From a bacterium (GTDB taxonomy: Bacteria; Vulcanimicrobiota; Xenobia; Xenobiales; Xenobiaceae), in assembly GCA_022839105.1 (NCBI GenBank), contig JALHDH010000006.1:9726-73725 (forward strand): a stretch of 64,000 nucleotides of DNA, read 5' to 3'. Both the position numbers and the translations under genes were made by a program. The notes below the pieces were generated by a model, which ran no database searches, was not told the DNA's origin, and saw nothing but the letters and a program-made list of their open reading frames with translations. This document shows, in pieces, positions 4,215-31,322 of this stretch (positions are counted from its first letter, which is position 1; each line of letters opens with the position of its first letter).

Positions 4215-4298
4215 CGATTGTACAGGGATCCCGGAACTGCTGCGAAGCTCTCTCCTGCAGGGCTTCCTGGCCTTTCCCTGGAATCGGCCTCAGCCCTC

Positions 4299-9091: not shown

Positions 9092-9150
9092 GGAGGTTCC
9101 GTGCGCATCCTGAGTAACTCGAACCACCCCACGGTCCAGGAGGAGGTGCC

Positions 9151-9846
9151 ATGACCATCAAGGTCGACCTGCTGCCTACCGAACGCAAGAGGTTCACCTT
9201 CGACCCCATGATGGGGTTCCTTTTGGTGATCATCATCGTCTGCACGGTAGGCTTCGTCATCTACGGGTCCAAGCTCCAGAACAACATCGAGACGGAGAAG
9301 GCCGGCGTCGCCCAGATCGAAGCCGAGATCAAGACCATCGAGAACAGCCTTCCCCAGATCGAGGATCTCAAGGCGGATATTGCCAAGATCAAGGCGGAGA
9401 TCAAGGTGATCGAGGGGCTGGTCTACGACCCCGTCCGTTACGGCAATCTCCTCGCCGAGGTCGGGCGTGTCCTGCCCGCCAACGTCTGGGTCGAGAGCCT
9501 CGCGATCGAGCCCGGCACCCGTTCCATCACGATGAGCGGAACCGCCGCGCAGATGGGGGCGAGCCATCCGCTGGCCACCATCGCCTCCCTCCTGGAGAAA
9601 ATCCATCAGTCCAAGATCTTCAACGATGCCTCCCTCGGCTCGACCGCCCAGGTCAAGCTTCTGGATGGCAACCTGATCGGCTTCAGCTTCCAGATCGAAG
9701 CCCGATATGACCCGGACCAGGCCGCCGGCCTGACCGAAGAAGTGCCTGCGGGTGGCGAGTCGTCCGCAGAGTTGGACGGGGTTCCGGCGGAAGGAGGAGC
9801 CGAGGCTCCACCTGAAGCTGGCGAGCCTCCCGCTCCGGGAACCTAG
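9151..9846 (+). CDS. pilN: Type IV pilus alignment protein PilN
   Basis: Short cytoplasmic N-terminus MTIKVDLLP (INLLP-like PilM-binding motif), a single TM, a coiled coil and a C-terminal domain with a Glu/Pro-rich tail. RBS is AGGAGGAGG. Confidence 0.85.
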   Translation: MTIKVDLLPTERKRFTFDPMMGFLLVIIIVCTVGFVIYGSKLQNNIETEKAGVAQIEAEIKTIENSLPQIEDLKADIAKIKAEIKVIEGLVYDPVRYGNLLAEVGRVLPANVWVESLAIEPGTRSITMSGTAAQMGASHPLATIASLLEKIHQSKIFNDASLGSTAQVKLLDGNLIGFSFQIEARYDPDQAAGLTEEVPAGGESSAELDGVPAEGGAEAPPEAGEPPAPGT

Positions 9847-9854
9847 GAGGAAAG

Positions 9855-10508
9855 ATGACTCTCACCACCCCGATGAAGATCATCCTGGCCCTGCTGGTCA
9901 TCGCGTTGATCGCAGTTGGCTTCTGGCTTCTGGACTGGCAGCACAAGCATACCGAGCTGGCTGGCATCAAGCAGCAGAGGGCGGATCTCGAGGCCAAGCT
10001 CGAACAGAACAAGGAGCTGGTCAAGGCCCTTCCGGTGCTGACCCGCGAGAAGGCAGACCTCGAAGAGAAGCTTCGCACGGTCGTGCAGACGGACCTGGTG
10101 GCCGAGCAGCCCGAACTCTTCGTGGCCAACTACATCAAGCAGATCGAGGCCGTGGTGTTGGAGCAGAGGGTTCGCATGGGGGATCCCACCTTCGACATCA
10201 TCAACATCCAGCCCGGAGCGCTCACCGCGTCCTCCCCGGCCGGAGCCGCCCCCGAGGAGGGCGCCGAAGGGGCCGACGCCACGCCGGACGCGCTCAAGTC
10301 GTTCCCGACCCGTGTCTTCAACATGAGCATGCGGGGAAGATACGCAACCCTGATCGACTTCCTCTACCAACTGGGAGCGCTGCGGCTTGAGCGTCTGGTC
10401 ACGATCGACAAGATCGCCCTGAGCCCGGCCGACAAGAACCTGACCGGCGGCAGCCCGACGCTCTCGATCACGATCCCCATCACCGCCTATATGCGGCAGG
10501 GAGGTTAG
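9855..10508 (+). CDS. pilO: Type IV pilus alignment protein PilO
   Basis: Single N-terminal TM (IILALLVIALIAVGFWLL), a coiled coil and a C-terminal domain. It starts 8 nt after pilN with RBS TAGGAGGAAAG. Confidence 0.8.
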   Translation: MTLTTPMKIILALLVIALIAVGFWLLDWQHKHTELAGIKQQRADLEAKLEQNKELVKALPVLTREKADLEEKLRTVVQTDLVAEQPELFVANYIKQIEAVVLEQRVRMGDPTFDIINIQPGALTASSPAGAAPEEGAEGADATPDALKSFPTRVFNMSMRGRYATLIDFLYQLGALRLERLVTIDKIALSPADKNLTGGSPTLSITIPITAYMRQGG

Positions 10509-10514
10509 AGAATC

Positions 10515-11165
10515 ATGAACCTGCCCGAGATTGCTCATCGGTTGCGTCGGGGAACGATGGCCCTGGCGCTGGCAGGAACGCTTGCCCTTTGCGCCGCGTG
10601 CGGCGGAGGGGGAGGCACCGGCGAGACCGAGACGACCGACTCCGGAACTCCGCCTGCGGTCAGCGGCGAGGTCCAGGTCACCGAAGAGGAAGTGGCTCTG
10701 GAACCCGAGGTTCCCGAAGCCACCGCGACTCCCGAGCGCCGTCAGCCTCAGGTCCGGTCGGTGGGTCGGGTCCGAGACCCGTTCATCAACCCGCTCGAGG
10801 CCAGTGTCGTGCCGGTCCAGCCTGCAGGTCCCGTGACCCAGCCCGGAGTCGCCGCTCCTGCCGGCGGGGCGGCTCCGATGACCGGTGCTCCCTTGGCTGG
10901 CTTCCAGAAGCCGAAGGCTCCTGAGATGCCGACCCCGGACGTCATGGTCACCGGCCTGGTGCGTTCGGGTGCGACCTATCGCGCCATCCTGACCGGCCCT
11001 GAAGGCTCCTTGATCGTGGCGGCCGGACAGAAGGTCGGCTCCTTCCAGGTGGCCTCGATCAGCCCCAAAGGGGTTGTGCTCTCCTGGAAGGGCCAGAAGG
11101 TGACCCTGCCTTTGGAACGCGAGGAGTTCGGGCCCGATGGCCTCCGTCGCGGAGAAAGGCCTTAG
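10515..11165 (+). CDS. pilP: PilP-like pilus assembly lipoprotein
   Basis: Signal/lipobox-like LAGTLALCAACGG, then a Pro/Glu-rich linker. The C-terminal beta-domain motifs are VRDPFINPLE and VTGLVRSGATYRAILTGPEGSLIVAAGQKVG...VASISPKGVVL. Its position between pilO and pilQ supports the call. Confidence 0.65.
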   Translation: MNLPEIAHRLRRGTMALALAGTLALCAACGGGGGTGETETTDSGTPPAVSGEVQVTEEEVALEPEVPEATATPERRQPQVRSVGRVRDPFINPLEASVVPVQPAGPVTQPGVAAPAGGAAPMTGAPLAGFQKPKAPEMPTPDVMVTGLVRSGATYRAILTGPEGSLIVAAGQKVGSFQVASISPKGVVLSWKGQKVTLPLEREEFGPDGLRRGERP

Positions 11166-11546
11166 AGACAGTCAACGCAGAATCCGCCGCGCGGCCCGGG
11201 TCCATTGGCCGGTCTGCGAGCACGCGGCAGGTTCCAGCGCCCCATCGGAGCGGTCTCCGATGCCGGGCAGAACAGGTGAAACGCACGGTCGGGCCTCGAG
11301 GGTGCCCGTCCGAGCGAGGCGACAGCGGCCAGCCAGGCCTCGAGGCCCGGGGTATCCCTGGGGCGGTCCCGGAACGGGGCCTCCGCGCGGCCGGCCCCTT
11401 CGACGGCGGAAGGTGGTGATCAGTGCTACGGACGGTATCGACCCTCGAGGAATCAGGGGCACACGACTTCTCCGAGGCGCCACGAGCGCAGGGGGCGGTC
11501 GGCGCCTCACCCAGAATGATGGCCAATAGGAGGTGGGTAAAAACCA

Positions 11547-13589
11547 ATGCTCTTGTCGAAGCCTAGAAGCTGGAAGCTTCTGCTCGCGTGCCTTCTGGCC
11601 GTAGGACTTTTGCTGCCTGCGACCACGACGGCCCAGGCTGCCAGCGCGACCGTGAGCGGTGTCAAGATCACGGACGGCACCGGAACCTTGAAGGTGGACG
11701 TCCAGGCCACGGCCCCGGTGAGCTTCCGTTCCAAGCGGCTTGCCCAGCCGCGGCAGATGGTTGTCATCGATGTGTGGCCGGCAGTGCTCGGCACCGGCGC
11801 CCAAGCCCAGACCGATGTGAATCGGGGCCTGGTCGAGAAGGTTCGCCTGGCCCAGTACACGCCGGATACGGTTCGCGTCTATCTGGACGTGATCTCGCAG
11901 CCGCAACTCCAGGTCAGCCCTGCGCCCGAGCGGCGTGGCCTGACGGTGGCCGTCTCCACATCTCAGATTGCCGAGGCGAAAGTCACGACAGCCCCGGCAG
12001 CTCCGAGTGCGGAGGCCACCCGTCCGGCTCCCGTTCACAAGCCGGTGGCCCAGACCGCTCCCGCCCCGAAGCCTGCTCCGCAGGCCAAGGCGCAGCCCCG
12101 TCCTGCGACCCCCGCGTCCGTCACCCGGACGCCGACCTCCACCGCTTCGGCCCTGCGGGCCCAGCGGCCTCGCCCCCGGCCGGCGCCGGCTCCCAAGACG
12201 GTCTCCATCGATTTCGTCAACGCGGATCTGGTCTTCGTGATCAAGGCTCTGGCCCAGGAGATGGGTCGGAACGTCTTCGTCGCGCCCAACGTGATGGGGA
12301 CGGTCACCGTCACCCTGAACAAGGTGCAGCCCGAAGGGGCCCTGGCCCTGATCCTGAAGATGCAGGAGAACGACTACAACTACAAGATCGTGGACGGGAC
12401 CATCGTGGTGGCCAGTCCCGAGAAGCTGGCGCAGGTCGCGGATGATATCCTCACCCCGCGGACCAAGTCGGCTGCCGCCCGTCGCGACCTGATCTCCCAG
12501 GAATTCCTGCTCGAGGCCGCTCCGGCTGCCAAGGTCACCGAGTTCCTGAAGCTCCAGTATCCCGACGTGGAGTTCACCCAGCACCCGACGCTGAACGGCT
12601 TCTTCGCCAAGGCGACCCGGGATGAGCTGCGCCAGATCAAGGCCTCCATTCCTGGCCTGGATCAGGTGCCTGAACCTCCGCCGGCCCCTCGGCGCGAGTT
12701 CATCCCGGTCAAGTATGGTGATATCCGTCAGGTCCAGGCCTTGGCCAAGACCCTGGTGCCGGACCTCGAGTACAACACGGATGATCGGCTGAACCTGCTG
12801 ATCGTCAATGGCTCGGATGCCTCGATCGAGGCCCTGCAGGAGCTCCTGGCCACCATCGACCGGCCGCAGGAGCAGGTCATGCTCGATGTCAAGGTCGTCG
12901 ACCTGACCGAGAGCGGTGGAAAGAACCTCGGCGTGACGTGGGGCGCGCCCAACGCACCCGGCTCCTTCCAGACCACCTTCGGTGAGATCGTCCCGGTCCT
13001 CACTCCTCCGGCTGGATCGATCACCAATGACCAGATCGACCTCACCGAGTTGACCGGATTGGCAATCGGCCCGTTCGGTCGCACCCCGTTCGTGGTCCAG
13101 ACCACCCTGGCGTTCCTGATCACCAACGGTGAGGCCAAGATCCTGGCCTCTCCGCGGGTGGCCACCCAGTCCGGAGGCGAAGCGAAGATCCACGTGGGCG
13201 ACAAGTTCCCCATCGTGTTCTTCGACCCGCGTGCCGGCCAGTTCCAGGTCACCTACGTCAACATCGGCGTCACCCTCGACGTCAAGCCCCAGGTCAAGGC
13301 AGATGGCTACATCGTGGCCGAAGTCAAGCCTGAGGTGTCGAACCTGGTCGATCTGGTCAACAACCAGTACCCCCGCACCACGGTCCGCACCGTCAACTCG
13401 ACGATGCGGGTCAAGGATGGCGACACGATTGTGCTGGGCGGCCTGATCTCCGAGAGTCAGCGCCACAGCGTCAGCAAGATCCCGCTTCTGGGTGACCTGC
13501 CGATCTTCGGTCCCTTGTTCCGCTCGGTGACCGATTCGGCGGATCGCAACGAAGTGATCCTGATGATGACCCCGCACATCATGAAGTAG
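11547..13589 (+). CDS. pilQ: Type IV pilus secretin PilQ with N-terminal AMIN domain
   Basis: Signal peptide, then an AMIN-like segment (VSGVKITDGTGTLKVDVQATAPVSFRSKRLAQPRQMVVIDVWPAVL) and a Pro/Ala-rich linker. The secretin C-domain shows VKDGDTIVLGGLISE...SKIPLLGDLPIFGPLFRS. Confidence 0.9.
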   Translation: MLLSKPRSWKLLLACLLAVGLLLPATTTAQAASATVSGVKITDGTGTLKVDVQATAPVSFRSKRLAQPRQMVVIDVWPAVLGTGAQAQTDVNRGLVEKVRLAQYTPDTVRVYLDVISQPQLQVSPAPERRGLTVAVSTSQIAEAKVTTAPAAPSAEATRPAPVHKPVAQTAPAPKPAPQAKAQPRPATPASVTRTPTSTASALRAQRPRPRPAPAPKTVSIDFVNADLVFVIKALAQEMGRNVFVAPNVMGTVTVTLNKVQPEGALALILKMQENDYNYKIVDGTIVVASPEKLAQVADDILTPRTKSAAARRDLISQEFLLEAAPAAKVTEFLKLQYPDVEFTQHPTLNGFFAKATRDELRQIKASIPGLDQVPEPPPAPRREFIPVKYGDIRQVQALAKTLVPDLEYNTDDRLNLLIVNGSDASIEALQELLATIDRPQEQVMLDVKVVDLTESGGKNLGVTWGAPNAPGSFQTTFGEIVPVLTPPAGSITNDQIDLTELTGLAIGPFGRTPFVVQTTLAFLITNGEAKILASPRVATQSGGEAKIHVGDKFPIVFFDPRAGQFQVTYVNIGVTLDVKPQVKADGYIVAEVKPEVSNLVDLVNNQYPRTTVRTVNSTMRVKDGDTIVLGGLISESQRHSVSKIPLLGDLPIFGPLFRSVTDSADRNEVILMMTPHIMK

Positions 13590-13610
13590 TCCTCGTTCGA
13601 GGTCGCTTCG

Positions 13611-13642
13611 CAGGAGGGTGGTGTTTCGGCACCACCCTCCTG
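13611..13642 (+). terminator. Perfect 13-bp stem-loop after pilQ
   Basis: CAGGAGGGTGGTG-tttcgg-CACCACCCTCCTG starts 22 nt after the pilQ stop. No clear U-tract follows, so it may act as a terminator or as a processing/stability element. Confidence 0.5.
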
Positions 13643-13987
13643 CCATGTCCGGCCGGGTTGGAATGCTCCTTCCCCTCCGTCTTCTTGGGAATCACGCAGG
13701 GGAGGAGGTCGGTCCTGGGGAACCGAACAGTCCGAAAGTCAAAGCCTGTCTTCTCGACCCGGGGCGCGGTTGCTTTGTTCGGGAGGGGCCCGGGGCGCTG
13801 GCCTGGGAGCCTGGGAATCCGGTCAGGTGGGGCGCCGGTTCCGGGGCCTCGGCGTCTTGATGGGATATCCGGGTTTCCGAGCAGCAGGTCTTGTCGGGCC
13901 CGCCCGGAGAGGCGGGCAGTCGGGGATTTGTTTTGCGACCCTGGGCTCGACGCAGGCGCAGGGCCCCAGAAAGTGGTGTGAACGCAA

Positions 13988-16900
13988 GTGGCCGATGACG
14001 TCCGGGATTTGATGCGGGAGGCCGAGTCGCTGATCGAGGAGCGCGACTGGGATGCCGCCCTGGAGAAGCTCAAGAGGGTCCTGGAACTTGATCCTGAGAA
14101 CGCCAAGGCGTGTGAGAGGCGGGCACACGCTTTCGCGGTTCGCGGCATGATCAAGTCGGTCGTTCAGACCTACTTCCGTTTGATGGACATCCTGGAGGCA
14201 CGCTCGGAGCTCGACCCGGCCATCGAGGTCGCCGGCTGGATTCAGCGCCTGGATCCCCAATCAGATGCCGCCAGGATGCGGGTCATCCAGATCCTGCGCA
14301 AGAAGGGCGACCAGGCCGAGGTGGTCCGTCGCTCGCGGGATCTGGCCCGGCTCTATATCGAACTCGGACAAGGCGATCAGTCGATTTCGCTTCTGAAGAG
14401 CGCCCAGGAGGCGGATCCCGAGAACCTCGAGATCGGTCTGGAACTGGCCGAGATGTTCGTCAGCCATGGGCATATCGAGGAGGGGGCCGCGCAGTATCGC
14501 AAGGTGGCCGGAGCCTTCCAGGAAAAAGGCCTGGTCGAGAAGGCCGCCGAGGCGTTCCGGCGCATGAAGGTCATCGTTCCCGATGACCCCGGGGTCTTCT
14601 TCACCCTCGGCAAGCTCTTCGTGACCTTGGGGCGTTTCAACGAGGCCGAGCAGGAATTCCGGGCGATCCTGCGCCACAACCTCAACCACGAGGAGGCCCT
14701 GCTGGCCCTGGGCGATGTGTGCCAGAAGAAGGGGCAGTTCCGCGACGCGATCCTGGCGTTCAACAAGATCCTGAGCATCAATCCCCAGGAGAATACCGCC
14801 AAGGAGAAGCTGGGGGAACTCTATCAGGCCCAGGGCATTTCTCAGGACGCTGTCAAGCACTATCTGGCCGCGGCTCATTCCTGGCAGCAGCTTGAGGAGC
14901 ATCCGCGGGCCATCAAGCTCTATCAGCGGGTCCTGGCACTGGATCCCACCAACCCCACCGCGTGTCGGGAACTGACCAACCTGGGGGCTCCGTTGACCCC
15001 CGACCCCGGGGACTTCGCCCCGCCAGCCCAGCCGGCTCCGACCCCGGAGACCGGTCGTTCCAAGTCGGCCTCACAATCTTCAAAAAACCAGTCCGGCGAG
15101 ACCATCCAGGTCCCCAAGAAGCGCCGCAAGGGTCTCGAGTCCCCGGATGGTTCCCCGCCCGCCGGAGAACGCGTCCGCAAAGGTCTGGTCCGCAAGGAGG
15201 AAGCTGGCGGCCGGGGTCTGACCCGCAAGGTGGGAGGGAAGGCCGGCCTGGTCGCGGCGAGTCTCGAAAAGCCCGTTCTCGGGCGGGGGGGGAGCGGGCC
15301 TCGTCCGGGCTTGATGAAGCCGGGCCTGGGACTCCCCGGTGCCGAGAAGCCGGTTCTCGGGGGCAAGAGGACCTTGCGCCGGAAGGACCGTGTCGAGGAG
15401 CCGCCCGAAGAAGTCTTCGAGGAGGTCTTCGAGGAAGTCTTCGAGGAGCCTGTCGAGGAGATCGTCCAGGCCAAGCCGGAACTCCCTCGGGAGGCTCCGG
15501 CAGCCGCCCAGCCTCCCGAGGAGGTCGCCCCCCCGGCTCCGCTCGAAGAACCCTTGGAGTTCATTGAAGAGGCAGCCCCGGCAATCGCCTCCGAGGCTCC
15601 TGAGATCGAACAGGCTTCCCTGGATTCCGAACTCACCGAGGCGGAGGCGCAAGTGACTCCGGTGGAAGTCGCTGCGCCTCCGCGCCCCAGCCCGGTCCGG
15701 CCCGTCATGGTGGTCCAGGCCCGACCTGGAACCTTGCAGGTTCCACCTCCGGTCCTCTTCCTGGCCGAACCCTCCCTGCTGCCTCGAATCCGCGAGCAGG
15801 TCGTGGACGCGCCGGATCCCGAGGTGCTTCCCTGGAGCCCCCTGACCGAGGTGGACGAGGACCAGGTCCGTCAGGCCCGCAAGAAGAAGACCGAGGCCCA
15901 GGTGGCCCAGGTTCCGGACGAGAAGAAGTCCGGTCCGATCGCCTCGCGCTTTGGTGGCTCCGGAGGAGGCCTGACCTTCTCGGGTGGTTCGCTTCTTCAG
16001 GGGATGCGGATGGCCGGGGGGCAGAAATCCCGGCGTCCGGCTGCGCGAGCAGAGCAACCCCAGGAGCCCCCCGCGGAAGCCACGCCCAAGACGGCCCGGC
16101 CGGCAGCCGGGCGATCTCCCTCGGCGGCCGGCTCGCTGGCCGAGAGGATCGCCAGGATGCGTGCCGAGAAGGATGCCCTGGAACGGGAACAATCCGGGCA
16201 GGTTTCCTCCGAAGAGGAGGCCGCTCCCAAGCCGCCTGCTCCGCCCAAGGTGCGCCCTGGAACGCCGCCCGTTGCCCGGGGGCGCAAGGCCTTGCTGGGG
16301 GGAACCCCGTCTGCCTCTCCACCGGTCACGGCCGCGCCGGAGCGCATCCCTGCGCCCCAGGTGACGCCCGCACCCGGAAGGATTCCAGCTCCCCAGGCCT
16401 CCGATTCGGTTGAGGCCGTTGCAGTCGAAGAGGCGGTCCCCGGACCGGGCCGCCCCGCTGTCGTTCGCGCGGGGCGCACGGCCCTGGGAAAGGCCTCGAC
16501 GCCCGTGGAGGCGCCCGCTGCCGTGCCTGCTCCCGAGCCGGTTCCGCCCCCTCAGGTCCCTGAGCCGCCCCTGGAGGTTGCCGCCCAGCCTTCGGAGGAG
16601 CCGCAGGCCCAGGTGGCGCCCGTGCTGGAGGAGGTTCCGGTCGGGGAGACCGCTTCCGAGGAGTCGTCCCAGGCCGTCGTCGAGGAGGACCTCCTTGCCG
16701 GATCCGCCTCCCAGGCTGGATTGCCGGTTGCCGCGGGAGAGGAGGAGCTCTTTGCCGGAGCCCCCTCCCAGGCGGAATTGCCGATCGGTGCCGGGGAGGA
16801 GGAGCTCTTTGCCGGAGCTCCCTCCCAGGAGGAATTGCCGATCGGCGCCGGGGAGGAGGAGCTCTTCGCGGGACCGCCCTCCCAGGAGGAGTTGCAGATC

Positions 16901-19189
16901 GGAGCCGGGGAAGAGGAACTCTTCGCAGGTCCGGCCGCGCAGGAGGAAATCCTGGCCGGGCCGGCTCCCGAAGAAAAGCCCCAGGCCCCGGAATCGGGAG
17001 GCACTCTCGAGGAGGCCGGCCCTGCCCAGCCGCTCGCCGAGGTCCCGTCCCAGGCGCTTCCGGTCGAGGAACCTGTGCCGGCCCAGCCGGAACCGGTGGC
17101 GACCCTCGCCGAAGAGTCCGAGGTTCAGGCGGAGTCGGCCCTGGTCGAGCCTGAACCTGAGGCCCAGGTGGAGTCCATCGCCGAGGGTCTTGAGCCGGAG
17201 GCACCGGTGGCGGTTGCCGAAGGCCCGTCCCCCGCAGTGCAGGCCCCGGAACCTTCGGTGGCCGAGCCTCCGGCGGCCGAGACCTTGTGCTCGCTGGCCG
17301 TGGAGTCGGAGTTCGCCCCAGAGCAGATCCAGGAGGCCCGAAGGGTTCGTGAGAAGCTCGCGGGGGCCGATGTCACCACGGCGATCAGCGCCTATCGGCG
17401 CGCGGTCGAGGAATCGCCTGAAAACCTCATGCTCCGGACGGATCTGGCCGACATCCATCTGCGCTACGGCCTGCTGGATGATGCCGTCATGCAGTACCGG
17501 CAGATCCTCATGCGCAAGCCGGACTCGATTGCCCTGCGTCACCGACTGGCAGACGCATATCTCTGGAACGCCGAGTATGAGGAGGCCGCCTCGACCTTCC
17601 TGGAACTGGCGGATCTCCACGTCCGGAATGAGCGCGAGGCCGACGCCGTCGACATCCTGCAGTCGGTGTTGAGCCTGGATCCCAACCACTTCCTGGCTCG
17701 GCGTCGGCTGGTCGACCGCTTCTCGGGGCTGGGCCAGAAGGACCGGGCGGTCCACCACCTTCGCCAGCTCGCCGAGATCGCCCTGGCCCGGGGGACCGTG
17801 GAGGAGGCCATCGGGGCTTTCCAGCAACTGATGACCCTCTCGGATGACCCCACCTTCCAGGAGCGCCTGGCCCAGGTCTACGAGAATCAGGGCGAGGTGG
17901 CCCAGGCCCTGGTCAACTACCGGACCTTGGCCCAACGCTACCGGGAAGCCCACCTGTGGGATGAGGCCACCGGCGTCACCGAGAAGCTGGTGGCCCTGGA
18001 TCCGGACAACCTGGCCGATCGCCACGCGCTGATCGAGCTCTACGAGAGGCAGCAGCGCTTCGACCGGGTCCTGGAGGGGCGCTTCGAACTCGGGTGTCGC
18101 CACGAGGACCAGGGAGCCATCTCGGAGGCGACCATGCTCTTCGAGCTGGTTCTCGAGACGGATCCTGCCCACCACGAGGCACGCCGCAGGTTGGTGGACT
18201 GCCATCTGCGCAGCGGCGATCTGGCGGCAGCCCTGAAGAATTCCCAGCCACTGACCGAGCTGTACCTCGAGACCCGGGACACCGCTCCGGCCATCGACCT
18301 GTATCGGCGCCTGACCGAGGCCGACCCGAAGTCCCTGGAGCTCCGCCGTCGTCTGCTGGAATTCTACGAGATGGCCGGTCGGCACGAGGAGGCCCTCGAG
18401 CAGTTGCTGGTCCTGGCGGACCTGCACGAGGCCTCCGGGCGTGAGAGGGAGGCCGTCCAGGTCCTGCAGAGGGCCTTGGAGGTGGCTCCGACCCGCGACG
18501 ATCTGCACTATCGCCTCGCCCGCCTCTACGACGAGAAGCTGGGCAGCCTGCCCGGCGCCCTGAACGAGTTCCGCCGGGTCTTCGAACTGAACCCTGGCCA
18601 CACCGAGGCCATGGATCGCTATGCCCGACTGCTGATGGAACAGCGCAGGGCGCGCGAGGCCGCCGAGGTCCTCAACCGCCTGGTCGAGGTCCAGTCCGAG
18701 TCGGGAGGTCTCTCTCGAACCCAGATCCTGGGCGAGTACAAGGAGCGGATCCAGGCCGAGCCGACGGACTGGCAGACCCGATTCGTCTACGGCGAGCTGT
18801 GCTATTACCTCAACCAGGTCGAGGATGCCGTCGAACAGTTCCAGAAGACCCGTTCCGACCGGGATCACGAGCTGCGCTCCTACAACATGCTCGGCCTGGC
18901 CTTCGCCAAGAATCCACGCTTCGGGTTGGACCTTGCCGTGCGTCAGTTCCGCCGGGGTCTTGAGACCAAGGGCCATGCCGAGCAGGACTACCTGGAACTG
19001 CGTTACAACCTGGCGATGCTCCTGTACAAGAATCACCGCCTGCAGGAAGCCCTGACCGAGCTCAAGGACATCCTGGCGGTCGACGTGGCCTATCGCGATG
19101 TCGACGAGAGGGTGAGGCGGCTTCAGGAGGAGATCGCCGGGGGAGGGGGCGGGAAGACCTCCCGCCTGCCACCGCAAAGGGGAGCCTGA
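13988..19189 (+). CDS. 1733-aa TPR protein with central acidic Pro/Glu/Ala-rich repeat region
   Basis: The N-terminal ~330 aa and C-terminal ~700 aa are TPR-like (LELDPENAKA, ALDPTNPTA, SLDPNHFLA, ALDPDNLAD, ETDPAHHEA, ELNPGHTEA). The middle ~700 aa are low-complexity and acidic. Third codon positions are strongly G/C. GTG start; an ATG lies 8 codons downstream. Confidence 0.8.
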   Translation: MADDVRDLMREAESLIEERDWDAALEKLKRVLELDPENAKACERRAHAFAVRGMIKSVVQTYFRLMDILEARSELDPAIEVAGWIQRLDPQSDAARMRVIQILRKKGDQAEVVRRSRDLARLYIELGQGDQSISLLKSAQEADPENLEIGLELAEMFVSHGHIEEGAAQYRKVAGAFQEKGLVEKAAEAFRRMKVIVPDDPGVFFTLGKLFVTLGRFNEAEQEFRAILRHNLNHEEALLALGDVCQKKGQFRDAILAFNKILSINPQENTAKEKLGELYQAQGISQDAVKHYLAAAHSWQQLEEHPRAIKLYQRVLALDPTNPTACRELTNLGAPLTPDPGDFAPPAQPAPTPETGRSKSASQSSKNQSGETIQVPKKRRKGLESPDGSPPAGERVRKGLVRKEEAGGRGLTRKVGGKAGLVAASLEKPVLGRGGSGPRPGLMKPGLGLPGAEKPVLGGKRTLRRKDRVEEPPEEVFEEVFEEVFEEPVEEIVQAKPELPREAPAAAQPPEEVAPPAPLEEPLEFIEEAAPAIASEAPEIEQASLDSELTEAEAQVTPVEVAAPPRPSPVRPVMVVQARPGTLQVPPPVLFLAEPSLLPRIREQVVDAPDPEVLPWSPLTEVDEDQVRQARKKKTEAQVAQVPDEKKSGPIASRFGGSGGGLTFSGGSLLQGMRMAGGQKSRRPAARAEQPQEPPAEATPKTARPAAGRSPSAAGSLAERIARMRAEKDALEREQSGQVSSEEEAAPKPPAPPKVRPGTPPVARGRKALLGGTPSASPPVTAAPERIPAPQVTPAPGRIPAPQASDSVEAVAVEEAVPGPGRPAVVRAGRTALGKASTPVEAPAAVPAPEPVPPPQVPEPPLEVAAQPSEEPQAQVAPVLEEVPVGETASEESSQAVVEEDLLAGSASQAGLPVAAGEEELFAGAPSQAELPIGAGEEELFAGAPSQEELPIGAGEEELFAGPPSQEELQIGAGEEELFAGPAAQEEILAGPAPEEKPQAPESGGTLEEAGPAQPLAEVPSQALPVEEPVPAQPEPVATLAEESEVQAESALVEPEPEAQVESIAEGLEPEAPVAVAEGPSPAVQAPEPSVAEPPAAETLCSLAVESEFAPEQIQEARRVREKLAGADVTTAISAYRRAVEESPENLMLRTDLADIHLRYGLLDDAVMQYRQILMRKPDSIALRHRLADAYLWNAEYEEAASTFLELADLHVRNEREADAVDILQSVLSLDPNHFLARRRLVDRFSGLGQKDRAVHHLRQLAEIALARGTVEEAIGAFQQLMTLSDDPTFQERLAQVYENQGEVAQALVNYRTLAQRYREAHLWDEATGVTEKLVALDPDNLADRHALIELYERQQRFDRVLEGRFELGCRHEDQGAISEATMLFELVLETDPAHHEARRRLVDCHLRSGDLAAALKNSQPLTELYLETRDTAPAIDLYRRLTEADPKSLELRRRLLEFYEMAGRHEEALEQLLVLADLHEASGREREAVQVLQRALEVAPTRDDLHYRLARLYDEKLGSLPGALNEFRRVFELNPGHTEAMDRYARLLMEQRRAREAAEVLNRLVEVQSESGGLSRTQILGEYKERIQAEPTDWQTRFVYGELCYYLNQVEDAVEQFQKTRSDRDHELRSYNMLGLAFAKNPRFGLDLAVRQFRRGLETKGHAEQDYLELRYNLAMLLYKNHRLQEALTELKDILAVDVAYRDVDERVRRLQEEIAGGGGGKTSRLPPQRGA
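15407..15466 (+). repeat. In-frame 12-bp microrepeat (EEVF x3, then EEPV, EEIV)
   Basis: gaRgaRgtcttc is repeated head-to-tail and translates to EEVFEEVFEEVFEEPVEEIV inside the 1733-aa CDS. Confidence 0.8.
16682..16966 (+). repeat. Five in-frame tandem copies of a 57-bp (19-aa) unit, EEELFAGAPSQEELPIGAG
   Basis: Units occupy 16682-16738, 16739-16795, 16796-16852, 16853-16909 and 16910-16966. Units 2 and 3 differ at only a few nucleotides. There are no spacers and the array is coding. Confidence 0.85.
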
Positions 19190-19238: not shown

Positions 19239-22200
19239 ATGGCAGACCGCAAGAAGATCGACACGCTGATCCAGCAAGGGGACCAGTTGGCGGCCCAGAA
19301 CCGCTGGGATCAGGCCATGGGAGCCTATCGGCAGGCCCTGGAGCTGGCTCCGGAGGACGTGCAGGTTCGGGATCATATCCTGGAGGCGGCCACCCGCCGG
19401 GGGGACTATGGCGAGGTCATCAGTCAGTGCATGGCCCTGGCCGAGCTCTTCGCCGCCCAGGGAGAGGCCGACCAGGCCATCGAGCGCTACAAGATCATCG
19501 TCAACCTCGAGCAGAGCGTGCGCAAGAAGGATTTTGGAGGGGAAGAGGCCTCCGAGATCCAGAACCGGGTGTCGCAGGTCAAGCCAGAGATCTTCTCGCG
19601 GATCGGGAAGTTCTACCTGGAGAAGGGGGAGCATGACGAGTCCGTAGCCTGGCTTCGCTCCAGCCTGGACATCGACCCCGGCCGATGGGATACCCATATG
19701 GCCTTGGGCCGCGCCCTCATGGCTCAAGGCAAGGACAAGGAGGCCATCGGCGAGTTCCAGGAAGTCGTGCGGCTGGCGCCCAATGAGGCTGCCCAGGCCT
19801 ATGAGATGCTCGGCGAGGTCTTCATCCGGGCCGGGCGGACGCCCCAGACCACGGTGGTCTGGTTCCGCAATGCCGGCGAGCTCTACATGCAGCGCAAGCA
19901 GATGGTCGACGCCATCCGCACCTATGAGCGCATCCTGGAATACGAGCCGCGCAACAAGGACATCCTGGTCAAGCTTGCCGAGATCTACGCTTCGGAGGGA
20001 CGCAGCGAGCAGGCGGTGGAGACCTATCGCACCCTCGCCGGCATCTATCAGGAAGAGGGTCTGCTCGACAAGGTGATCGGCTTCTACGAGAAGCTGCTGG
20101 ATTGCGATCCCCAGAATGAGGAAGCCCGCAATCAGGTCATCGACATCTATCGCAACATTCTGGCCAGGGATCCCTCGAATACCTCGGTGCGACTCCGCCT
20201 GGTCGAGAACCTCCTGCGCCGCGGCATGACCTCGGAGGCTGGCGAGCAGCAACTGGCGCTGGCCCGTTCCCACCTGGAACGCGGCATGATCGAGGAAGCG
20301 CTCCCGGTGGCGCGTAAGCTCCTGGAGTTGGACCCGGGCAATATCGAGGCCCGCAAGCTGATGGGGGAGATCTATCGGAAGAAGGACATGAACTCGGAGG
20401 CCTTGACCGAGTTCCAGCAGGTGGTCCGACTGTACCAGGATGCCGGGGACGAGAAGGCCGCCATGGACTTCCAGCATCGCCTGGTCGAACTCTTCCCCGA
20501 GGCCTCGGACCTGCAGTACCAGGTCGCCCTGACCTTGCGAAGCCAGGGGGATCACGAGGGCGCCGTTCGCGAGCTGATGCGCCTGCTGGGAGAGCGTCCC
20601 GAGGATCTGCTGGCCATGATCTATCTGGCCGAGGAGTATTCGGCCCTGAACCGCTGGGATGAGGCGGTGGAGACCTATCGCACGGTGCTGACCCAGGAAC
20701 CCGCTCGGCTGGATGTGCGCAAGCGCCTGGTCAAGCATTGTCTGGAGTCGGGACGCCTGGATGAGGCCGTCCAGGAGATCCAGGCCCTTCCTGAAGAGGA
20801 TTTCGAGCGGGGCAGCCTGCTGTGCCGGGTGATCGAGAAGCAACTGGCGGACGGCCTCCTGGAGGAGGTCGAGCGCAACCTGGATCGCCTTTCCGATGAG
20901 GACGAACGCAAGGTCGGCTTCCGCAAGGATCTCATCAAGAGATACCTGGATGCCAACGATCTGCAGCGGGCTGACGCGGCCATGCCCCTGGTCCCTCGCT
21001 CGGACAAGGAGCGCAACCGGCTGGTGACCCGGCTGATGGAGATGTACCTCAGTTCAGGGAACCTCGAGACGGCGGCAGAGCTGATCAACCGGCTTCCCGC
21101 CGAGGACCCCCTGCGGCTCTCCTTCCAGAGGCGCCTGATCGGGTCGTATCAGGAGAGCGGTCGCCTGGAGGAGGCGGCAGCCGAGCTGGCTCGCCTTCCG
21201 GAGGGTGACGAGTCCCGCCCGGACTTCCTGGCCCGGCAGATCTCCGGATTGCTCACGGCAGGCCGCCTCTCCGAGGCGATCCGCGAGATCGAGCGGCTTC
21301 CGGAGGGGGACCCGGCCCGAAACTCGTTCATGGGCCAGTTGATCGAGGCCTACCTGCAGAGCGGCGACATCGATCGGGCCGCCGAGGAGGTCGGCCGCCT
21401 CTCGCTGGAGGACGAGATCCGACCCCGCTACCGCCGCCGCATCATCCAGGCCTACCTCAACGCGAATCGCCTGGAGGATGCCGAGCGCGACATCCATGCC
21501 CTCGAGCCGGGGGACCCCGAGAAACGCTCCTTCCTGCGCCTGCTCTTGCAGAAATTCGAGGCCACCGGGCAGATGGATCGCCTGCGCGAGATGCTTCTGC
21601 ACCTTCCCGATGACATGAACGAAAAGCAGCAGTATCTCGACGGGATCCTGCACAACTATCTCATGTCGGGGAATCTGGCCCAGATGCGCCAGGATGTCTA
21701 CCAGGTGGCGGAGTCGGTTTCGGCCGCCGGGAACCACCAGGAGGCCGAGCGTCTCTATCGCCAGTTGCTGGCCTATCATCCCGCGGACGTCGAGATTCGG
21801 TTGCGCCTCTCCCATGAGGTGGCCTGTCAGGGCGAGCTGGAGCGCGCCCGGGAAGGCATGCTGGTCCTGGCCGGGCGTTTCCACCGCGAGGGGAATGCGA
21901 CTTCGGCCGCGGACATCTACAGCCGCCTGCTCGAGATCGATCCGGAAAACCTGAATGCCCGCTATCGATTGGGCCATATCTGGGCCGAGCACGGTCAGAC
22001 CGCCCAGGCTCTGGAGCAGTTCTCCCAACTGGCCAAGGTCTACATGCTCCAGAATCTCCCCGAGGTCGCCCAGAGGGTGCTCAACCGCATCCTCGAGCTC
22101 GAGCCCAAGGACATCCCTCACCGGCGTCAGTTGATCCAGTTGTTGACGCGGAACCTGAGGTTTGACGAGGCCACCGAGCACTATCGGATGCTTCTCGGCA

Positions 22201-23660
22201 TCCATCTGGATCGCGGAGAGATCGACGAGGCGAGGCTCTGCGTCCGCGAGATTGTCAACCTCCAGCCCCTGAACCTGGAACTTCGCCAGAGGCTTGGCGA
22301 GATGTTCCTCAAGGCGGGCTTCCTGGAGGAAGGCCAGAAGCTGATGGAGGAGCTGGCTTCGACCTACAAGGGCCGGGGCGATCACAAGCACGTGATCGAG
22401 GTCTTCTGGACGCTCTCGCGGACCTTCGAGGACAACCAGCAGTGGGAGACCGCGCTGGAGTATCGCGAACGGGTTGCCGACGAGCTGGTCGAAGCCGAGG
22501 ACTGGAAGGAGGCCCAGGAGCAGTACCTCCATACCCTGGAGCACTACCTGGTCCGGGGCCGCAAGGAACGCACGGATCCTCTCTTCGTCAAGCTGATCGA
22601 CGGCTTCTTCCGCCACAAGAACGTTCCCGAGGGCATCTCCCGCATCGAGCGCCTGGAGGAGTCCTTCCTGGATCAGGGGCGCAAGAGCACCTCGCTGATC
22701 GTCAAGGATCGTCTGGCCGGGATCATGGAGAGGATGGAGGAGTGGGACCGGGCCCTGGAGCTGGTGGAGGCCATCTCCAGCCGCTACCTGGAACTCGGCG
22801 AGCACGAGCAGGCCATCGCCTACTGCCGTCGCGGTGCGGATCTGGCCCTGAATCACCAGCGCGCCGATCACGGCATGGAACTGCTCTTCCGTCTGGCTGG
22901 ACTGGTCCTGGCCTATCGCGGCGTGGAGGCGGCCCGGCCGGTCCTGGAGGAGATCCGTCGGCGTTCCGGCGAGGAGATCCGGCTCCTGGAGCGCATCGGG
23001 GATCTGCTCTTCAATGCCGAGCACTTCGAAGAGGCCCGCCCCTACTACGACGAGGTCCTGCGCAAGGAGCCGGGCTGCGCCGGGGCCCTTTCGCGGGTGG
23101 CCATCATCTATGCCCGGCAGGAGCGTCTGGAAGAGGCTGCCGGCGTGGCCCGCCAGATCTTCGCCAAGGGTCTGGTGGGTCGGATCGTCAGCGAGTATCG
23201 CCAGGCGGTCGGCTATTCACCGGAGGATGCCGGTTCCCAGATCAAGATGGGCGAGTTCTATCGCCAGATGGGCTTCCTGGAGGAGGCCATCCAGGAATTC
23301 CACCGCGCTTCCCGGGACCCGGGCAAGATGCTCGAGGCGGTGAACCAGTTGGCCCTGGCCTTCAAGGAGAAGGGATATCGGGAACTGGCCATCCGCCAGT
23401 TCCTCAAGGCCCTGGATCAGCCCGGGTTCATGGATGAGGATCTCCTGGACCTGCGCTATAATCTCGGGCAGGTCCTGGAAGAGGAAGGGCGTTTCCACGA
23501 GGCCCTCCAGGCCTACCAGGAATGCTATGCTGTGGACATCCGCTTCAGGGATGTCTCGGACCGGATCGAGGTCCTCTTCGAGAGGCTGCAGTCCGGCTCG
23601 CAAGGCGGGAACCTCGCTGAGTATGGGGAACCTGCAGACAATTGGGGCAGAGAGGGTTAG
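19239..23660 (+). CDS. 1473-aa all-helical TPR protein
   Basis: TPR-like repeats run throughout (LELAPEDVQV, DIDPGRWDTH, EYEPRNKDIL, DCDPQNEEA, ELDPGNIEA, EIDPENLNA, ELEPKDIPH). A gap-free 9 x 34-aa array lies at ~20787-21704. RBS is GGAGAAG. Confidence 0.8.
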   Translation: MADRKKIDTLIQQGDQLAAQNRWDQAMGAYRQALELAPEDVQVRDHILEAATRRGDYGEVISQCMALAELFAAQGEADQAIERYKIIVNLEQSVRKKDFGGEEASEIQNRVSQVKPEIFSRIGKFYLEKGEHDESVAWLRSSLDIDPGRWDTHMALGRALMAQGKDKEAIGEFQEVVRLAPNEAAQAYEMLGEVFIRAGRTPQTTVVWFRNAGELYMQRKQMVDAIRTYERILEYEPRNKDILVKLAEIYASEGRSEQAVETYRTLAGIYQEEGLLDKVIGFYEKLLDCDPQNEEARNQVIDIYRNILARDPSNTSVRLRLVENLLRRGMTSEAGEQQLALARSHLERGMIEEALPVARKLLELDPGNIEARKLMGEIYRKKDMNSEALTEFQQVVRLYQDAGDEKAAMDFQHRLVELFPEASDLQYQVALTLRSQGDHEGAVRELMRLLGERPEDLLAMIYLAEEYSALNRWDEAVETYRTVLTQEPARLDVRKRLVKHCLESGRLDEAVQEIQALPEEDFERGSLLCRVIEKQLADGLLEEVERNLDRLSDEDERKVGFRKDLIKRYLDANDLQRADAAMPLVPRSDKERNRLVTRLMEMYLSSGNLETAAELINRLPAEDPLRLSFQRRLIGSYQESGRLEEAAAELARLPEGDESRPDFLARQISGLLTAGRLSEAIREIERLPEGDPARNSFMGQLIEAYLQSGDIDRAAEEVGRLSLEDEIRPRYRRRIIQAYLNANRLEDAERDIHALEPGDPEKRSFLRLLLQKFEATGQMDRLREMLLHLPDDMNEKQQYLDGILHNYLMSGNLAQMRQDVYQVAESVSAAGNHQEAERLYRQLLAYHPADVEIRLRLSHEVACQGELERAREGMLVLAGRFHREGNATSAADIYSRLLEIDPENLNARYRLGHIWAEHGQTAQALEQFSQLAKVYMLQNLPEVAQRVLNRILELEPKDIPHRRQLIQLLTRNLRFDEATEHYRMLLGIHLDRGEIDEARLCVREIVNLQPLNLELRQRLGEMFLKAGFLEEGQKLMEELASTYKGRGDHKHVIEVFWTLSRTFEDNQQWETALEYRERVADELVEAEDWKEAQEQYLHTLEHYLVRGRKERTDPLFVKLIDGFFRHKNVPEGISRIERLEESFLDQGRKSTSLIVKDRLAGIMERMEEWDRALELVEAISSRYLELGEHEQAIAYCRRGADLALNHQRADHGMELLFRLAGLVLAYRGVEAARPVLEEIRRRSGEEIRLLERIGDLLFNAEHFEEARPYYDEVLRKEPGCAGALSRVAIIYARQERLEEAAGVARQIFAKGLVGRIVSEYRQAVGYSPEDAGSQIKMGEFYRQMGFLEEAIQEFHRASRDPGKMLEAVNQLALAFKEKGYRELAIRQFLKALDQPGFMDEDLLDLRYNLGQVLEEEGRFHEALQAYQECYAVDIRFRDVSDRIEVLFERLQSGSQGGNLAEYGEPADNWGREG

Positions 23661-24684: not shown

Positions 24685-24714
24685 GCCCACAGTCTTTCCA
24701 GGAGGATTCGGAAC

Positions 24715-31309: not shown

Positions 31310-31322
31310 GGCCCTCCGGATC

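What the first reader, a model, noticed from the sequence alone, without database searches (positions are those of the whole stretch)
13988..19189. 1733-aa TPR / acidic tandem-repeat / TPR protein immediately after pilQ: FimV/HubP- or SgmX-like pilus hub candidate
Seen: TPR arrays flank a ~700-aa Pro/Glu/Ala-rich acidic core. The core contains an EEVF x3 microrepeat (15407-15466). It also contains five head-to-tail 57-bp units encoding EEELFAGAPSQEELPIGAG (16682-16966). Units 2 and 3 are nearly identical at the DNA level, implying recent expansion and likely copy-number instability. No TM or LysM segment is visible.

Established: the polar hubs FimV/TspA (type IV pili) and HubP (Vibrio) combine strongly acidic repeat regions with TPR-like ends. 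Myxococcus SgmX is a large TPR protein that switches on type IV pili at the leading pole.

Inference: this protein, encoded in line with pilMNOPQ, may be a soluble scaffold of that kind with a different architecture.
Basis: partly seen in the sequence, partly recalled or inferred. Interest (0 to 1): 0.65.

Follow-up and report, generated by a model that had tools for sequence, protein, structure and literature searches.

The report
Pilus-operon-linked giant TPR scaffold protein
This is a real 1733-residue cytoplasmic protein, two rigid TPR blocks joined by a long floppy linker, that follows the type IV pilus genes throughout the little-studied phylum Eremiobacterota. It is most likely a pilus-associated scaffold, but its function is inferred and untested.

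Summary
ORF 13988-19189 encodes 1733 aa with no membrane segment. AlphaFold gives two confident all-helical TPR blocks (residues 1-332 and about 1105-1718) around a roughly 765-aa disordered core. The EEVF x3 repeat and the five 57-bp units are where stated, and units 2 and 3 differ at 3 of 57 bases.

The protein belongs to an unnamed family confined to Eremiobacterota/Vulcanimicrobiota. In every locus I read, and in at least 27 genomes from at least 12 families, its gene lies on the same strand just after pilM(NOP)Q. A paralogous giant TPR gene follows it (19239-23660 here), then a PATAN-like, roadblock, CheY and kinase block.

The constant parts are the 335-aa N-terminal block, a basic [KR]xGL/KPxLGG motif cluster and the C-terminal block. 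The acidic repeats change unit and copy number even within the genus.

It fails the FimV/HubP features (no LysM, no membrane anchor, no FimV models). It also fails the SgmX equivalog test (52 bits against a cut-off of 1800), and no MglA-like GTPase was found in this genome. Its layout and gene position still resemble SgmX.

Best reading: a soluble pilus-base scaffold of a new architecture. This rests on gene order and phyletic pattern only.

The parts
7991..13589 (+). Context: pilM (7991-9091), pilN (9151-9846), pilO (9855-10508), probable pilP (10515-11165) and the pilQ secretin (11547-13589)
   Evidence: Pfam hits: PilM_2 5.5e-59, PilN 1.3e-7, PilO 3.5e-7, Secretin 4.9e-44 plus AMIN
13610..13643 (+). 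Perfect 15-bp stem with a UUCG loop, 21 nt after the pilQ stop. It has no U-tail. It could be a transcript-end, stabiliser or attenuator element between pilQ and the TPR gene.
   Evidence: RNA fold of 13590-13680: -49.7 kcal/mol, z = -5.46, 0 of 200 shuffles as stable. No Rfam family matched.
13988..19189 (+). Whole gene: 1733-aa cytoplasmic protein with a TPR block, a disordered core and a second TPR block
   Evidence: ORF and translation. About 66 orthologues at 44-91% identity over the C-terminal block. More clades found with the N-terminal block.
13988..14992 (+). N-terminal TPR block, residues 1-335, ending in the near-invariant TNLGAP. This is the most conserved part of the family and its length is fixed.
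   Evidence: AlphaFold2: 19 helices, pLDDT above 90. Gap-free 335-aa alignments at 36-85% identity; 57-63% to the other-class members P0129, P0134, P0142 and P0148 (36.6% to P0168), where the C-terminal block is only about 31%.
15119..15385 (+). Basic, Gly-rich cluster of short motifs ([KR]xGL and KPxLGG), residues 378-466
   Evidence: KPxLG occurs 2-6 times against 0.01 expected, and [KR]xGL 4-6 times against 0.3 expected, in nearly all orthologues. It is the only island of the disordered core conserved in all clades. It persists in the short forms P0148 and P0134. AlphaFold2 pLDDT is about 38.
15407..15466 (+). EEVF x3 microrepeat followed by EEPVEEIV
   Evidence: TRF: period 12, 4 copies; translation
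15728..15862 (+). Conserved island in the disordered core, residues 581-625 (LQVPPPVLF...IREQVVDAPDPEVLPWSPL)
   Evidence: Conserved within the home family (Xenobium/Bruticola clade) but not beyond it
16130..16201 (+). Short conserved helix-like motif SLAERIARMRAEK, residues 715-738
   Evidence: 51% mean identity to distant members of the same family; not conserved in the sister families
16682..16966 (+). Five head-to-tail 57-bp units encoding EEELFAGAPSQEELPIGAG-type 19-mers
   Evidence: TRF score 316; pairwise unit identities. Relatives in the same genus keep the acidic-L-F/L-[AG]G motif but with other unit lengths and copy numbers.
17282..19147 (+). C-terminal TPR block, residues 1099-1720, starting at the conserved LCSLAVESEF junction
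   Evidence: AlphaFold2: 35 helices, pLDDT above 90. Foldseek finds only generic long TPR solenoids.
18728..19129 (+). Last roughly 134-aa TPR module (...YGELCY...LELRYNLA...VD..YRDV), shared with the neighbouring paralogue
   Evidence: Alignment A3: 30-33% identity between paralogues, 12 invariant columns; BLASTP
19148..19186 (+). Basic C-terminal tail GGGGGKTSRLPPQRGA, matching the motif GK[TV][ST]RLxP
   Evidence: The tail recurs in other classes (SKVTRLVPRD, GKVTRLIPRE, GKVTRLPSSR) but is absent in the sister families
19239..23660 (+). Tandem paralogue: a 1473-aa all-TPR protein, alike at both ends but without the disordered core
   Evidence: BLASTP: C-terminal ends E = 4e-29, N-terminal ends E = 2e-18. 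A paralogue follows the gene in all six fully read loci and appears as a second hit 4-5 kb downstream in most genomes.
23668..25602 (+). Conserved downstream partners: a protein with no Pfam match (to 24684) and a 295-aa PATAN-like protein (24715-25602)
   Evidence: The same order holds in L001, L002, L004, L005, L030 and L031. The PATAN assignment is weak: DUF4388/PatA_N at E = 6e-4.

Best explanation
The gene encodes a soluble cytoplasmic scaffold that works with the type IV pilus machine of Eremiobacterota. Two rigid TPR solenoids serve as protein-docking platforms. One is a strictly 335-aa N-terminal block and the other a roughly 620-aa C-terminal block.

A flexible tether of 200-1300 aa joins them. 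It carries a conserved basic [KR]xGL/KPxLGG motif cluster and lineage-specific acidic repeats studded with hydrophobic motifs (EEELFAG in this genome).

I infer that this protein and its tandem paralogue connect the cytoplasmic face of the pilus base (PilM, PilB/T, PilC) to the regulatory proteins encoded just downstream: a membrane or disordered protein, a PATAN-like protein, roadblock proteins, CheY and a GAF/PAS kinase. In that way it would control where or when pili are made. This is the role SgmX plays in Myxococcus, but here without an MglA GTPase.

What is shown: the architecture, a cytoplasmic location (no signal peptide or membrane segment), family-wide conservation, fixed gene position, paralogy and repeat turnover. 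What is inferred: every binding partner and any effect on pili.
For: 1. Gene position. The gene lies directly after pilQ on the same strand in all six fully read loci from distant clades. The same downstream order follows: a TPR paralogue, a 450-500-aa protein of unknown family, a roughly 296-aa PATAN-like protein, roadblock, CheY and a GAF kinase.

2. Linkage across the phylum. The C-terminal block lies 7-10 kb downstream of pilM, on the same contig and strand, in at least 27 genomes of at least 12 families. A divergent TPR gene sits in the same place in family f20.

3. Phyletic pattern. Of 63 genomes with the protein, 56 have a strong PilM_2 match (E below 1e-40). The other 7 have weaker or fragmentary PilM matches. 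Families f15 and f21 lack both.

4. Location and structure. The protein is cytoplasmic and has two confident TPR solenoids around a disordered core.

5. Constraint. The N-terminal block keeps its length and stays 57-63% identical in most other-class members (36.6% in the most divergent, P0168). The basic motif cluster is conserved family-wide at 2-6 copies against 0.01 expected. Both point to conserved partners.

6. Resemblance to SgmX. SgmX is likewise a cytoplasmic protein with an N-terminal TPR block, a Pro-rich linker and C-terminal TPRs. Its N-terminal TPRs activate pili and its C-terminal TPRs dock a CheY-like receiver and MglA (PMC7519303, PMC9811614). A CheY is encoded in this cluster.
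Against: There is no experimental or expression evidence.

A 398-nt gap with a strong hairpin separates the gene from pilQ, so co-transcription is not shown.

No specific sequence or fold relationship to SgmX, FimV or any characterised pilus regulator was found. TPR similarity is generic: a profile of the C-terminal module hits more than 125,000 proteins.

AlphaFold2 did not dock the ELF repeats or the basic motifs onto the adjacent TPR blocks.

The co-occurrence with PilM may reflect only one or two evolutionary events, because the absences sit in two families.

The link could be to the downstream signalling block rather than to the pilus itself.
Confidence: 0.55

Rival explanations
1. The protein is a scaffold for the downstream signalling block (PATAN-like, roadblock, CheY, GAF/PAS kinase, Wzy_C-TPR) rather than for the pilus machine. 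On this reading the block controls another envelope or behavioural output, such as polysaccharide production, pilin glycosylation or cell polarity in general. Its place after pilQ would then be inherited gene order.
For: The protein always travels with the downstream block. A gap and hairpin separate it from pilQ. Wzy_C-TPR genes belong to the same cluster.
Against: The junction with pilQ is kept across at least 12 families, even where pilNOP or other parts are rearranged. The protein is absent where canonical PilM is absent. PATAN domains and roadblock/CheY modules are themselves known pilus-motility regulators in other phyla; this last point is from my own knowledge and was not tested here.
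Confidence: 0.2
2. The protein is a FimV/HubP-type polar landmark hub: an acidic-repeat protein with TPR ends that marks the pole and recruits many clients.
For: It has an acidic, repeat-rich core and TPR ends. The repeats turn over quickly, as I recall they do in HubP.
Against: It has no LysM, no membrane segment and no match to the FimV core or C-terminal models. The acidic repeats are not conserved across the family, and short members (P0148, P0168) nearly lack them. Nothing is known about its localisation.
Confidence: 0.1
3. The protein is an ordinary multi-TPR protein with a junk-like low-complexity linker and has no specific role with pili. Its position would be coincidental.
For: All domain and fold matches are generic TPR.
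Against: The position is conserved phylum-wide. The N-terminal block keeps a fixed length and stays about 60% identical between classes. The disordered core holds conserved motif islands, and the tandem paralogue is conserved.
Confidence: 0.08

Closest known systems
SgmX of Myxococcus xanthus (and Bd2492 of Bdellovibrio): cytoplasmic TPR activator of type IVa pili
   Same: Both are cytoplasmic, with no signal peptide or membrane segment. Both have an N-terminal TPR block, a Pro-rich non-domain linker and C-terminal TPRs. Both are encoded beside the pil genes. In SgmX the C-terminal TPRs dock a CheY-like receiver (PMC7519303, PMC9811614), and a CheY is encoded in this cluster.
   Different: No detectable orthology: the NCBIfam SgmX model scores 52 bits against a cut-off of 1800, and no SgmX-named protein is among the top 120 relatives. 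This protein is 1.6 times longer and its linker is 765 aa and repeat-rich. It comes as a tandem paralogue pair. No MglA-like GTPase was found in the genome.
FimV (Pseudomonas) / HubP (Vibrio) polar hubs
   Same: Both have a long acidic, repeat-containing region combined with TPR-type interaction modules, and both are linked to type IV pili or polar machines.
   Different: FimV and HubP are inner-membrane proteins with a periplasmic LysM domain. This protein has no LysM, no membrane anchor and no match to FimV models. It has large TPR solenoids at both ends.
PilF/PilW/Tgl TPR pilotins
   Same: Both are TPR proteins of pilus systems. The protein gives sub-threshold hits to TIGR02521 (80 bits against 154) and to Tgl (58 against 225).
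   Different: The pilotins are small periplasmic lipoproteins. This protein is a giant cytoplasmic one without a lipoprotein signal.
Multivalent short-motif scaffolds such as Eps15/epsin with DPF and FxDxF repeats (functional analogy only, from my own knowledge)
   Same: Both have a disordered region carrying many copies of a short acidic-hydrophobic motif: EEELFAG here, DDLFGG/GGLFDE with 10-21 copies in sister families, and DPF[SG]xP in P0134.
   Different: There is no homology. The motif's partner is unknown. The motif differs between lineages and is absent in the Bruticola clade.

Membership tests
SgmX (NCBIfam NF052243, T4PFormProtSgmX) | Scores above the curated equivalog cut-off (1800 bits) and aligns colinearly with the model | tested here: not met
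   The protein scores 52.1 bits. The best stretch, residues 20-203, matches model positions 126-289. The paralogue scores 132 bits.
SgmX | Cytoplasmic protein with an N-terminal TPR block, a Pro-rich linker and C-terminal TPRs | tested here: met
   No hydrophobic segment. AlphaFold2 models of both blocks. The linker is 15.8% Pro. The SgmX layout is taken from PMC7519303 and PMC9811614.
SgmX | Acts as an effector of the Ras-like GTPase MglA, so MglA should be present in the genome | tested here: inconclusive
   A search of the whole genome with PF00071 found only hits inside 476-899-aa ORFs, which are translation-type GTPases, and no small GTPase. The assembly is 85% complete and only one Pfam model was used.
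SgmX | Required for polar PilB and for pilus formation | not testable with these tools
   Needs genetics and microscopy.
FimV / HubP | N-terminal periplasmic LysM peptidoglycan-binding domain | tested here: not met
   PF01476 is not among the Pfam hits. The N-terminus is a charged TPR helix.
FimV / HubP | Single transmembrane anchor | tested here: not met
   The best 19-residue Kyte-Doolittle window scores 1.1 and lies inside a TPR helix.
FimV / HubP | Matches to the FimV core or C-terminal NCBIfam/TIGRFAM models | tested here: not met
   No FimV model is among the 25 NCBIfam hits at E of 1e-3 or better.
FimV / HubP | Highly acidic repeat region in the cytoplasmic part | tested here: met
   Residues 471-640 and 800-1105 have pI of about 4 and contain tandem repeats. 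The feature varies across the family.
PilF/PilW pilotin (TIGR02521) | Small lipoprotein that scores above 154 bits | tested here: not met
   The protein scores 80.3 bits, has no lipobox or signal peptide, and is 1733 aa long.
TPR superfamily (Pfam clan) | Tandem 34-residue helix-turn-helix repeats | tested here: met
   TPR_19 at 1.2e-63, TPR_14 at 4e-48 and others. AlphaFold2 predicts 19 plus 35 helices. Foldseek matches OGT, Ctr9 and Ski3.

The most novel reading that the evidence does not exclude
Eremiobacterota may position or activate type IV pili without any Ras-like GTPase. In this reading a pair of giant paralogous TPR proteins forms a multivalent hub, possibly a condensate, at the pilus base. 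The hub would be held together by the block-polyampholyte linker: a basic KPxLGG cluster and acidic repeats bearing hydrophobic motifs. A CheY/kinase and PATAN/roadblock module would switch it directly.
Probability: 0.2. Interest if true: 0.75.

Novelty: new variant of a known kind. Interest (0 to 1): 0.5.

Why it matters
How bacteria decide where and when to build type IV pili is understood in only a few models: MglA-SgmX-FrzS in Myxococcus and FimV-PilG in Pseudomonas.

This family is an unannotated component that keeps its place after pilQ across an entire, barely cultivated phylum. It has a different build (TPR block, long disordered linker, TPR block, plus a tandem paralogue), and no cognate GTPase was detected.

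If it is a pilus scaffold, it would give a third, independent solution to pilus placement. It would also be a natural example of a bacterial scaffold whose disordered linker evolves by rapid repeat turnover while its two ends stay fixed.

There is a practical point as well. The repeats break short-read assemblies inside this gene, so it is often annotated as fragments.

Tried and rejected
- **C-terminal module search.** I searched a profile of the last 134-aa module against 1.84 billion representative proteins. It returned 125,428 hits, so the module is a generic three-TPR unit and does not define a wider pilus-linked family.
- **Foldseek and PDB sequence searches**. Only generic TPR solenoids came back (Ctr9, TTC21/IFT-A, Ski3, OGT, designed CTPR proteins), with TM-scores of 0.1-0.2.
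- **In-cis docking test with AlphaFold2.** I folded each TPR block with its adjacent linker to see whether the ELF repeats or the basic motifs dock onto it. The linkers stayed at pLDDT of about 35-40. This gives no support, and it does not exclude binding in trans.
- **One universal acidic motif.** The hexamer defined from this protein is enriched in its own genus and in the sister families. It has 0 copies in the Bruticola clade, which uses other repeats such as GEQLMGGYDY. I rejected it as a family-wide feature.
- **Phylum survey with PilQ as query.** This failed twice, as did a first relatives search. I used the PilM_2 family instead.
- **Small ORF 13658-13981.** It has no family hits, and no gene is called in the equivalent gap of any related locus. 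I treat it as non-coding.
- **Rfam on the pilQ-TPR spacer.** Nothing meaningful matched.
- **** was a mistaken alignment and carries no information.
Full report
**The object.** ORF 13988-19189 on the + strand encodes 1733 aa from a GTG start. Upstream on the same strand lie pilM, pilN, pilO, a probable pilP and the pilQ secretin (7991-13589). All were identified by Pfam, with PilM_2 at 5.5e-59 and Secretin at 4.9e-44. Further upstream are pilB/pilT-type ATPases, pilC, a prepilin peptidase and pilins.

The gene is not flush with pilQ. The gap is 398 nt and opens with a perfect 15-bp hairpin at 13610-13643 (-49.7 kcal/mol, z = -5.5). No Rfam family matches the gap. The 107-codon ORF in the gap has no family hit and no counterpart in related loci.

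**Anatomy.** Pfam reports only TPR-type families. AlphaFold2, run with alignments of 36-39 orthologues, gives two very confident all-helical solenoids. Residues 1-332 form 19 helices. Residues about 1105-1718 form 35 helices. Everything modelled between them has pLDDT of about 35-40.

The protein has no hydrophobic segment; the best 19-residue Kyte-Doolittle window scores 1.1. Its N-terminus is a charged helix, so the protein is cytoplasmic.

The 765-aa core is rich in Pro, Ala and Glu, with net charge -57. It is a block polyampholyte rather than a uniformly acidic region: residues 336-470 and 701-800 have pI of about 11, while 471-640 and 800-1105 have pI of about 4.

- Five 57-bp units lie at 16682-16966.
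- Units 2 and 3 differ at 3 of 57 positions. The outer units are only 60-79% identical to the others.

**Family.** A search with the C-terminal block found about 66 proteins of 1450-2300 aa at 44-91% identity. Scores then drop sharply from 565 to 373 bits, where generic giant TPR proteins begin. The few named members are Candidatus Xenobium, Candidatus Bruticola and 'Eremiobacteraeota'. By its closest relative (P0006), the window's genome is most likely a Xenobium-like member of class Xenobia, phylum Vulcanimicrobiota/Eremiobacterota.

A search with the N-terminal block found further clades of 1170-1870 aa, labelled Vulcanimicrobiota or Eremiobacteraeota. Again there is a sharp drop, from E = 1e-74 to generic proteins at 23% identity. 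No SgmX-named protein is among the best 120.

The N-terminal block aligns without gaps over exactly 335 residues in every member. It stays 57-63% identical in the other-class members P0129, P0134, P0142 and P0148, where the C-terminal block is only about 31% identical. The most divergent member, P0168, has 36.6% and 24.6% respectively. The N-terminal block is therefore the most constrained part of the protein.

**What is constant and what is not in the linker.** Linker length ranges from about 200 aa (P0148, P0168) to about 1330 aa (P0034).

One island is conserved in all clades. It is a basic, Gly-rich cluster of [KR]xGL and KPxLGG motifs, at residues 378-466 here. KPxLG occurs 2-6 times against 0.01 expected, and [KR]xGL 4-6 times against 0.3 expected.

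Two further islands are conserved only within the home family: IREQVVDAPDPEVLPWSPL and SLAERIARMRAEK. A basic C-terminal tail, GK[TV][ST]RLxP, recurs in several classes.

The acidic repeats are lineage-specific:
- In this genus they carry an acidic-L-[FL]-[AG]-G motif. Unit length and copy number vary: five 19-mers here, four to six irregular units in species whose TPR blocks are 86-94% identical to this one, and about twenty 11-mers (EEEMLAGPAAA) in P0008.
- Sister families carry 10-21 DLFG/GLFD-type motifs against about 1 expected.
- The Bruticola clade uses unrelated repeats, and the hexamer defined from this protein has 0 copies there.
- P0134 carries DPF[SG]xP motifs.

Rapid repeat turnover between species is therefore shown. 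Many Bruticola assemblies break inside this gene, which fits with the repeats.

**Gene context elsewhere.** Six loci from distant clades were read gene by gene: L001, L002, L004, L005, L030 and L031. Five show pilQ, then this gene, then a second giant TPR gene, a 450-500-aa protein with no Pfam hit, a roughly 296-aa protein with faint PatA_N/DUF4388 hits, a roughly 118-aa roadblock protein, CheY and a GAF(-PAS) histidine kinase. Wzy_C-TPR genes lie nearby. In L005 the contig starts at this gene, so pilQ was not seen there.

I also surveyed 201 genomes of the phylum. The C-terminal block is present at E of 1e-20 or better in 63 of them. In at least 27 genomes from at least 12 families it lies 7-10 kb downstream of pilM on the same contig and strand.

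Family f20 fell mostly below that threshold. It nevertheless has a divergent TPR gene about 6 kb downstream of pilM.

Families f15 and f21, which include many closed genomes, lack both blocks. Their only PilM_2 matches are weak, at 1e-5 to 1e-20.

Counting strong PilM as E below 1e-40 gives a 2x2 table of 56/7/16/122, with Fisher p = 4e-27. The absences fall in two families, so this may reflect very few evolutionary events. The conserved adjacency is the stronger argument.

The out-group giant from Sumerlaeia (P0069) is not next to pil genes.

**The neighbour is a paralogue.** The next gene (19239-23660, 1473 aa, all TPR) matches this protein at both ends. N-terminal residues 8-330 align with its 10-330 (E = 2e-18). 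C-terminal residues 1170-1722 align with its 894-1456 (E = 4e-29). The last roughly 130 residues are the most alike, with the motifs LELRYNLA and VD.[YF]RDV. The tandem pair is kept phylum-wide.

**Comparison with known systems.**

FimV and HubP are defined by a periplasmic LysM domain, one membrane anchor and FimV-specific modules. All three were tested and are absent. The shared acidic-repeat feature is the least conserved part of this family.

SgmX is described in the literature as a 1060-aa cytoplasmic protein. Its TPR1-8 form the pilus-activating domain. A Pro-rich region follows, then TPR9-11, which bind the CheY-like receiver of FrzS, and TPR12-14, which bind MglA-GTP. SgmX is needed for polar PilB (PMC7519303, PMC9811614). 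The present protein has the same overall layout, the same kind of genomic address, and a CheY in its cluster.

It fails the SgmX equivalog model, however (52 bits against 1800). It shows no preferential similarity to SgmX. The genome, which is 85% complete, has no small Ras-like GTPase detectable with PF00071. I therefore file it as working like SgmX at best, and not as a member of that family.

**Mechanism proposed.** The shown features are two rigid docking platforms, a long flexible tether with a conserved basic motif cluster and variable multivalent acidic-hydrophobic motifs, a cytoplasmic location, and a fixed address between the pilus-base genes and a signalling block.

From these I infer a soluble scaffold. 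Together with its paralogue, it would connect the cytoplasmic face of the pilus machine to the PATAN-like, roadblock, CheY and kinase module, and so govern pilus assembly in space or time. My confidence is about 0.55.

AlphaFold2 gave no sign of in-cis docking of linker motifs, so the partners remain unknown.

The rivals are a scaffold for the downstream signalling block only (0.2), a FimV/HubP-like polar landmark (0.1), and a generic TPR protein with coincidental linkage (0.08).

**Earlier notes of this scan** describe the same module in a Bruticola genome and the roadblock operon in this window. I treated them as leads. My own locus tables and genome surveys reproduce the gene order and the lack of a nearby GTPase.

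Noticed in passing
L002:6331-9686 and L004:1281-4679: In the sister families with large genomes (about 7-9 Mb), pilM is followed directly by pilQ after a roughly 230-nt gap. No pilN, pilO or pilP is called between them. Either the alignment subcomplex genes sit elsewhere or this pilus machine lacks them.
   Followed up: no
window 13610-13643: A perfect 15-bp GC-rich hairpin with a UUCG loop lies 21 nt after the pilQ stop. It has no U-tail. Gaps of 250-535 nt between pilQ and the TPR gene occur in four of the other loci read (L001, L002, L004, L030); in L031 the gap is only about 100 nt and in L005 pilQ was not seen.
   Followed up: partly
window 4218-6170 and 30699-33761; L030:947-3010: Polytopic proteins with a Wzy_C (O-antigen-ligase-like) domain fused to TPRs flank the cluster. 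In L030 one sits between pilA and pilD, where the window has a 650-aa membrane/TPR ORF. They could be pilin O-glycosyltransferases of the TfpO/PglL kind; that comparison is from memory.
   Followed up: no
G011 and other family f15/f21 genomes: The family that holds closed 3.5-Mb genomes of the Vulcanimicrobium type lacks both TPR blocks. Its only PilM_2 hits are weak and lie inside ORFs of more than 500 aa. Yet V. alpinus is reported to be phototactic by type IV pili (PMC9758169). These lineages seem to use a differently built pilus gene set.
   Followed up: partly
Genus g2 genomes, e.g. G012:C47:369-2246, G025:C20:983-2860, G044:C2:169-2046: Short-read assemblies repeatedly end inside the repetitive linker of this gene. 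Public annotations therefore hold many truncated 'partial TPR proteins' such as P0035, P0037, P0038 and P0166.
   Followed up: partly
P0033 (L001:10001-16663): The Bruticola orthologue carries several near-identical apolar segments (SGVGLAKVAVGAVAIGAVAAASS) in its linker. This feature is absent from the window's protein.
   Followed up: no
window 13988-14992 versus 17282-19147: The two ends evolve at very different rates. Against the same other-class proteins the N-terminal block is 57-63% identical and the C-terminal block only about 31% (P0168: 36.6% and 24.6%). The N-terminal block of this genus is also closer to other classes (about 60%) than to Bruticola in its own family (47%).
   Followed up: partly
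L031:10001-16924: In the most divergent clade the first TPR protein is only 1171 aa, with a linker of about 200 aa, and the paralogue is split into two genes of 500 and 653 aa.
   Followed up: no
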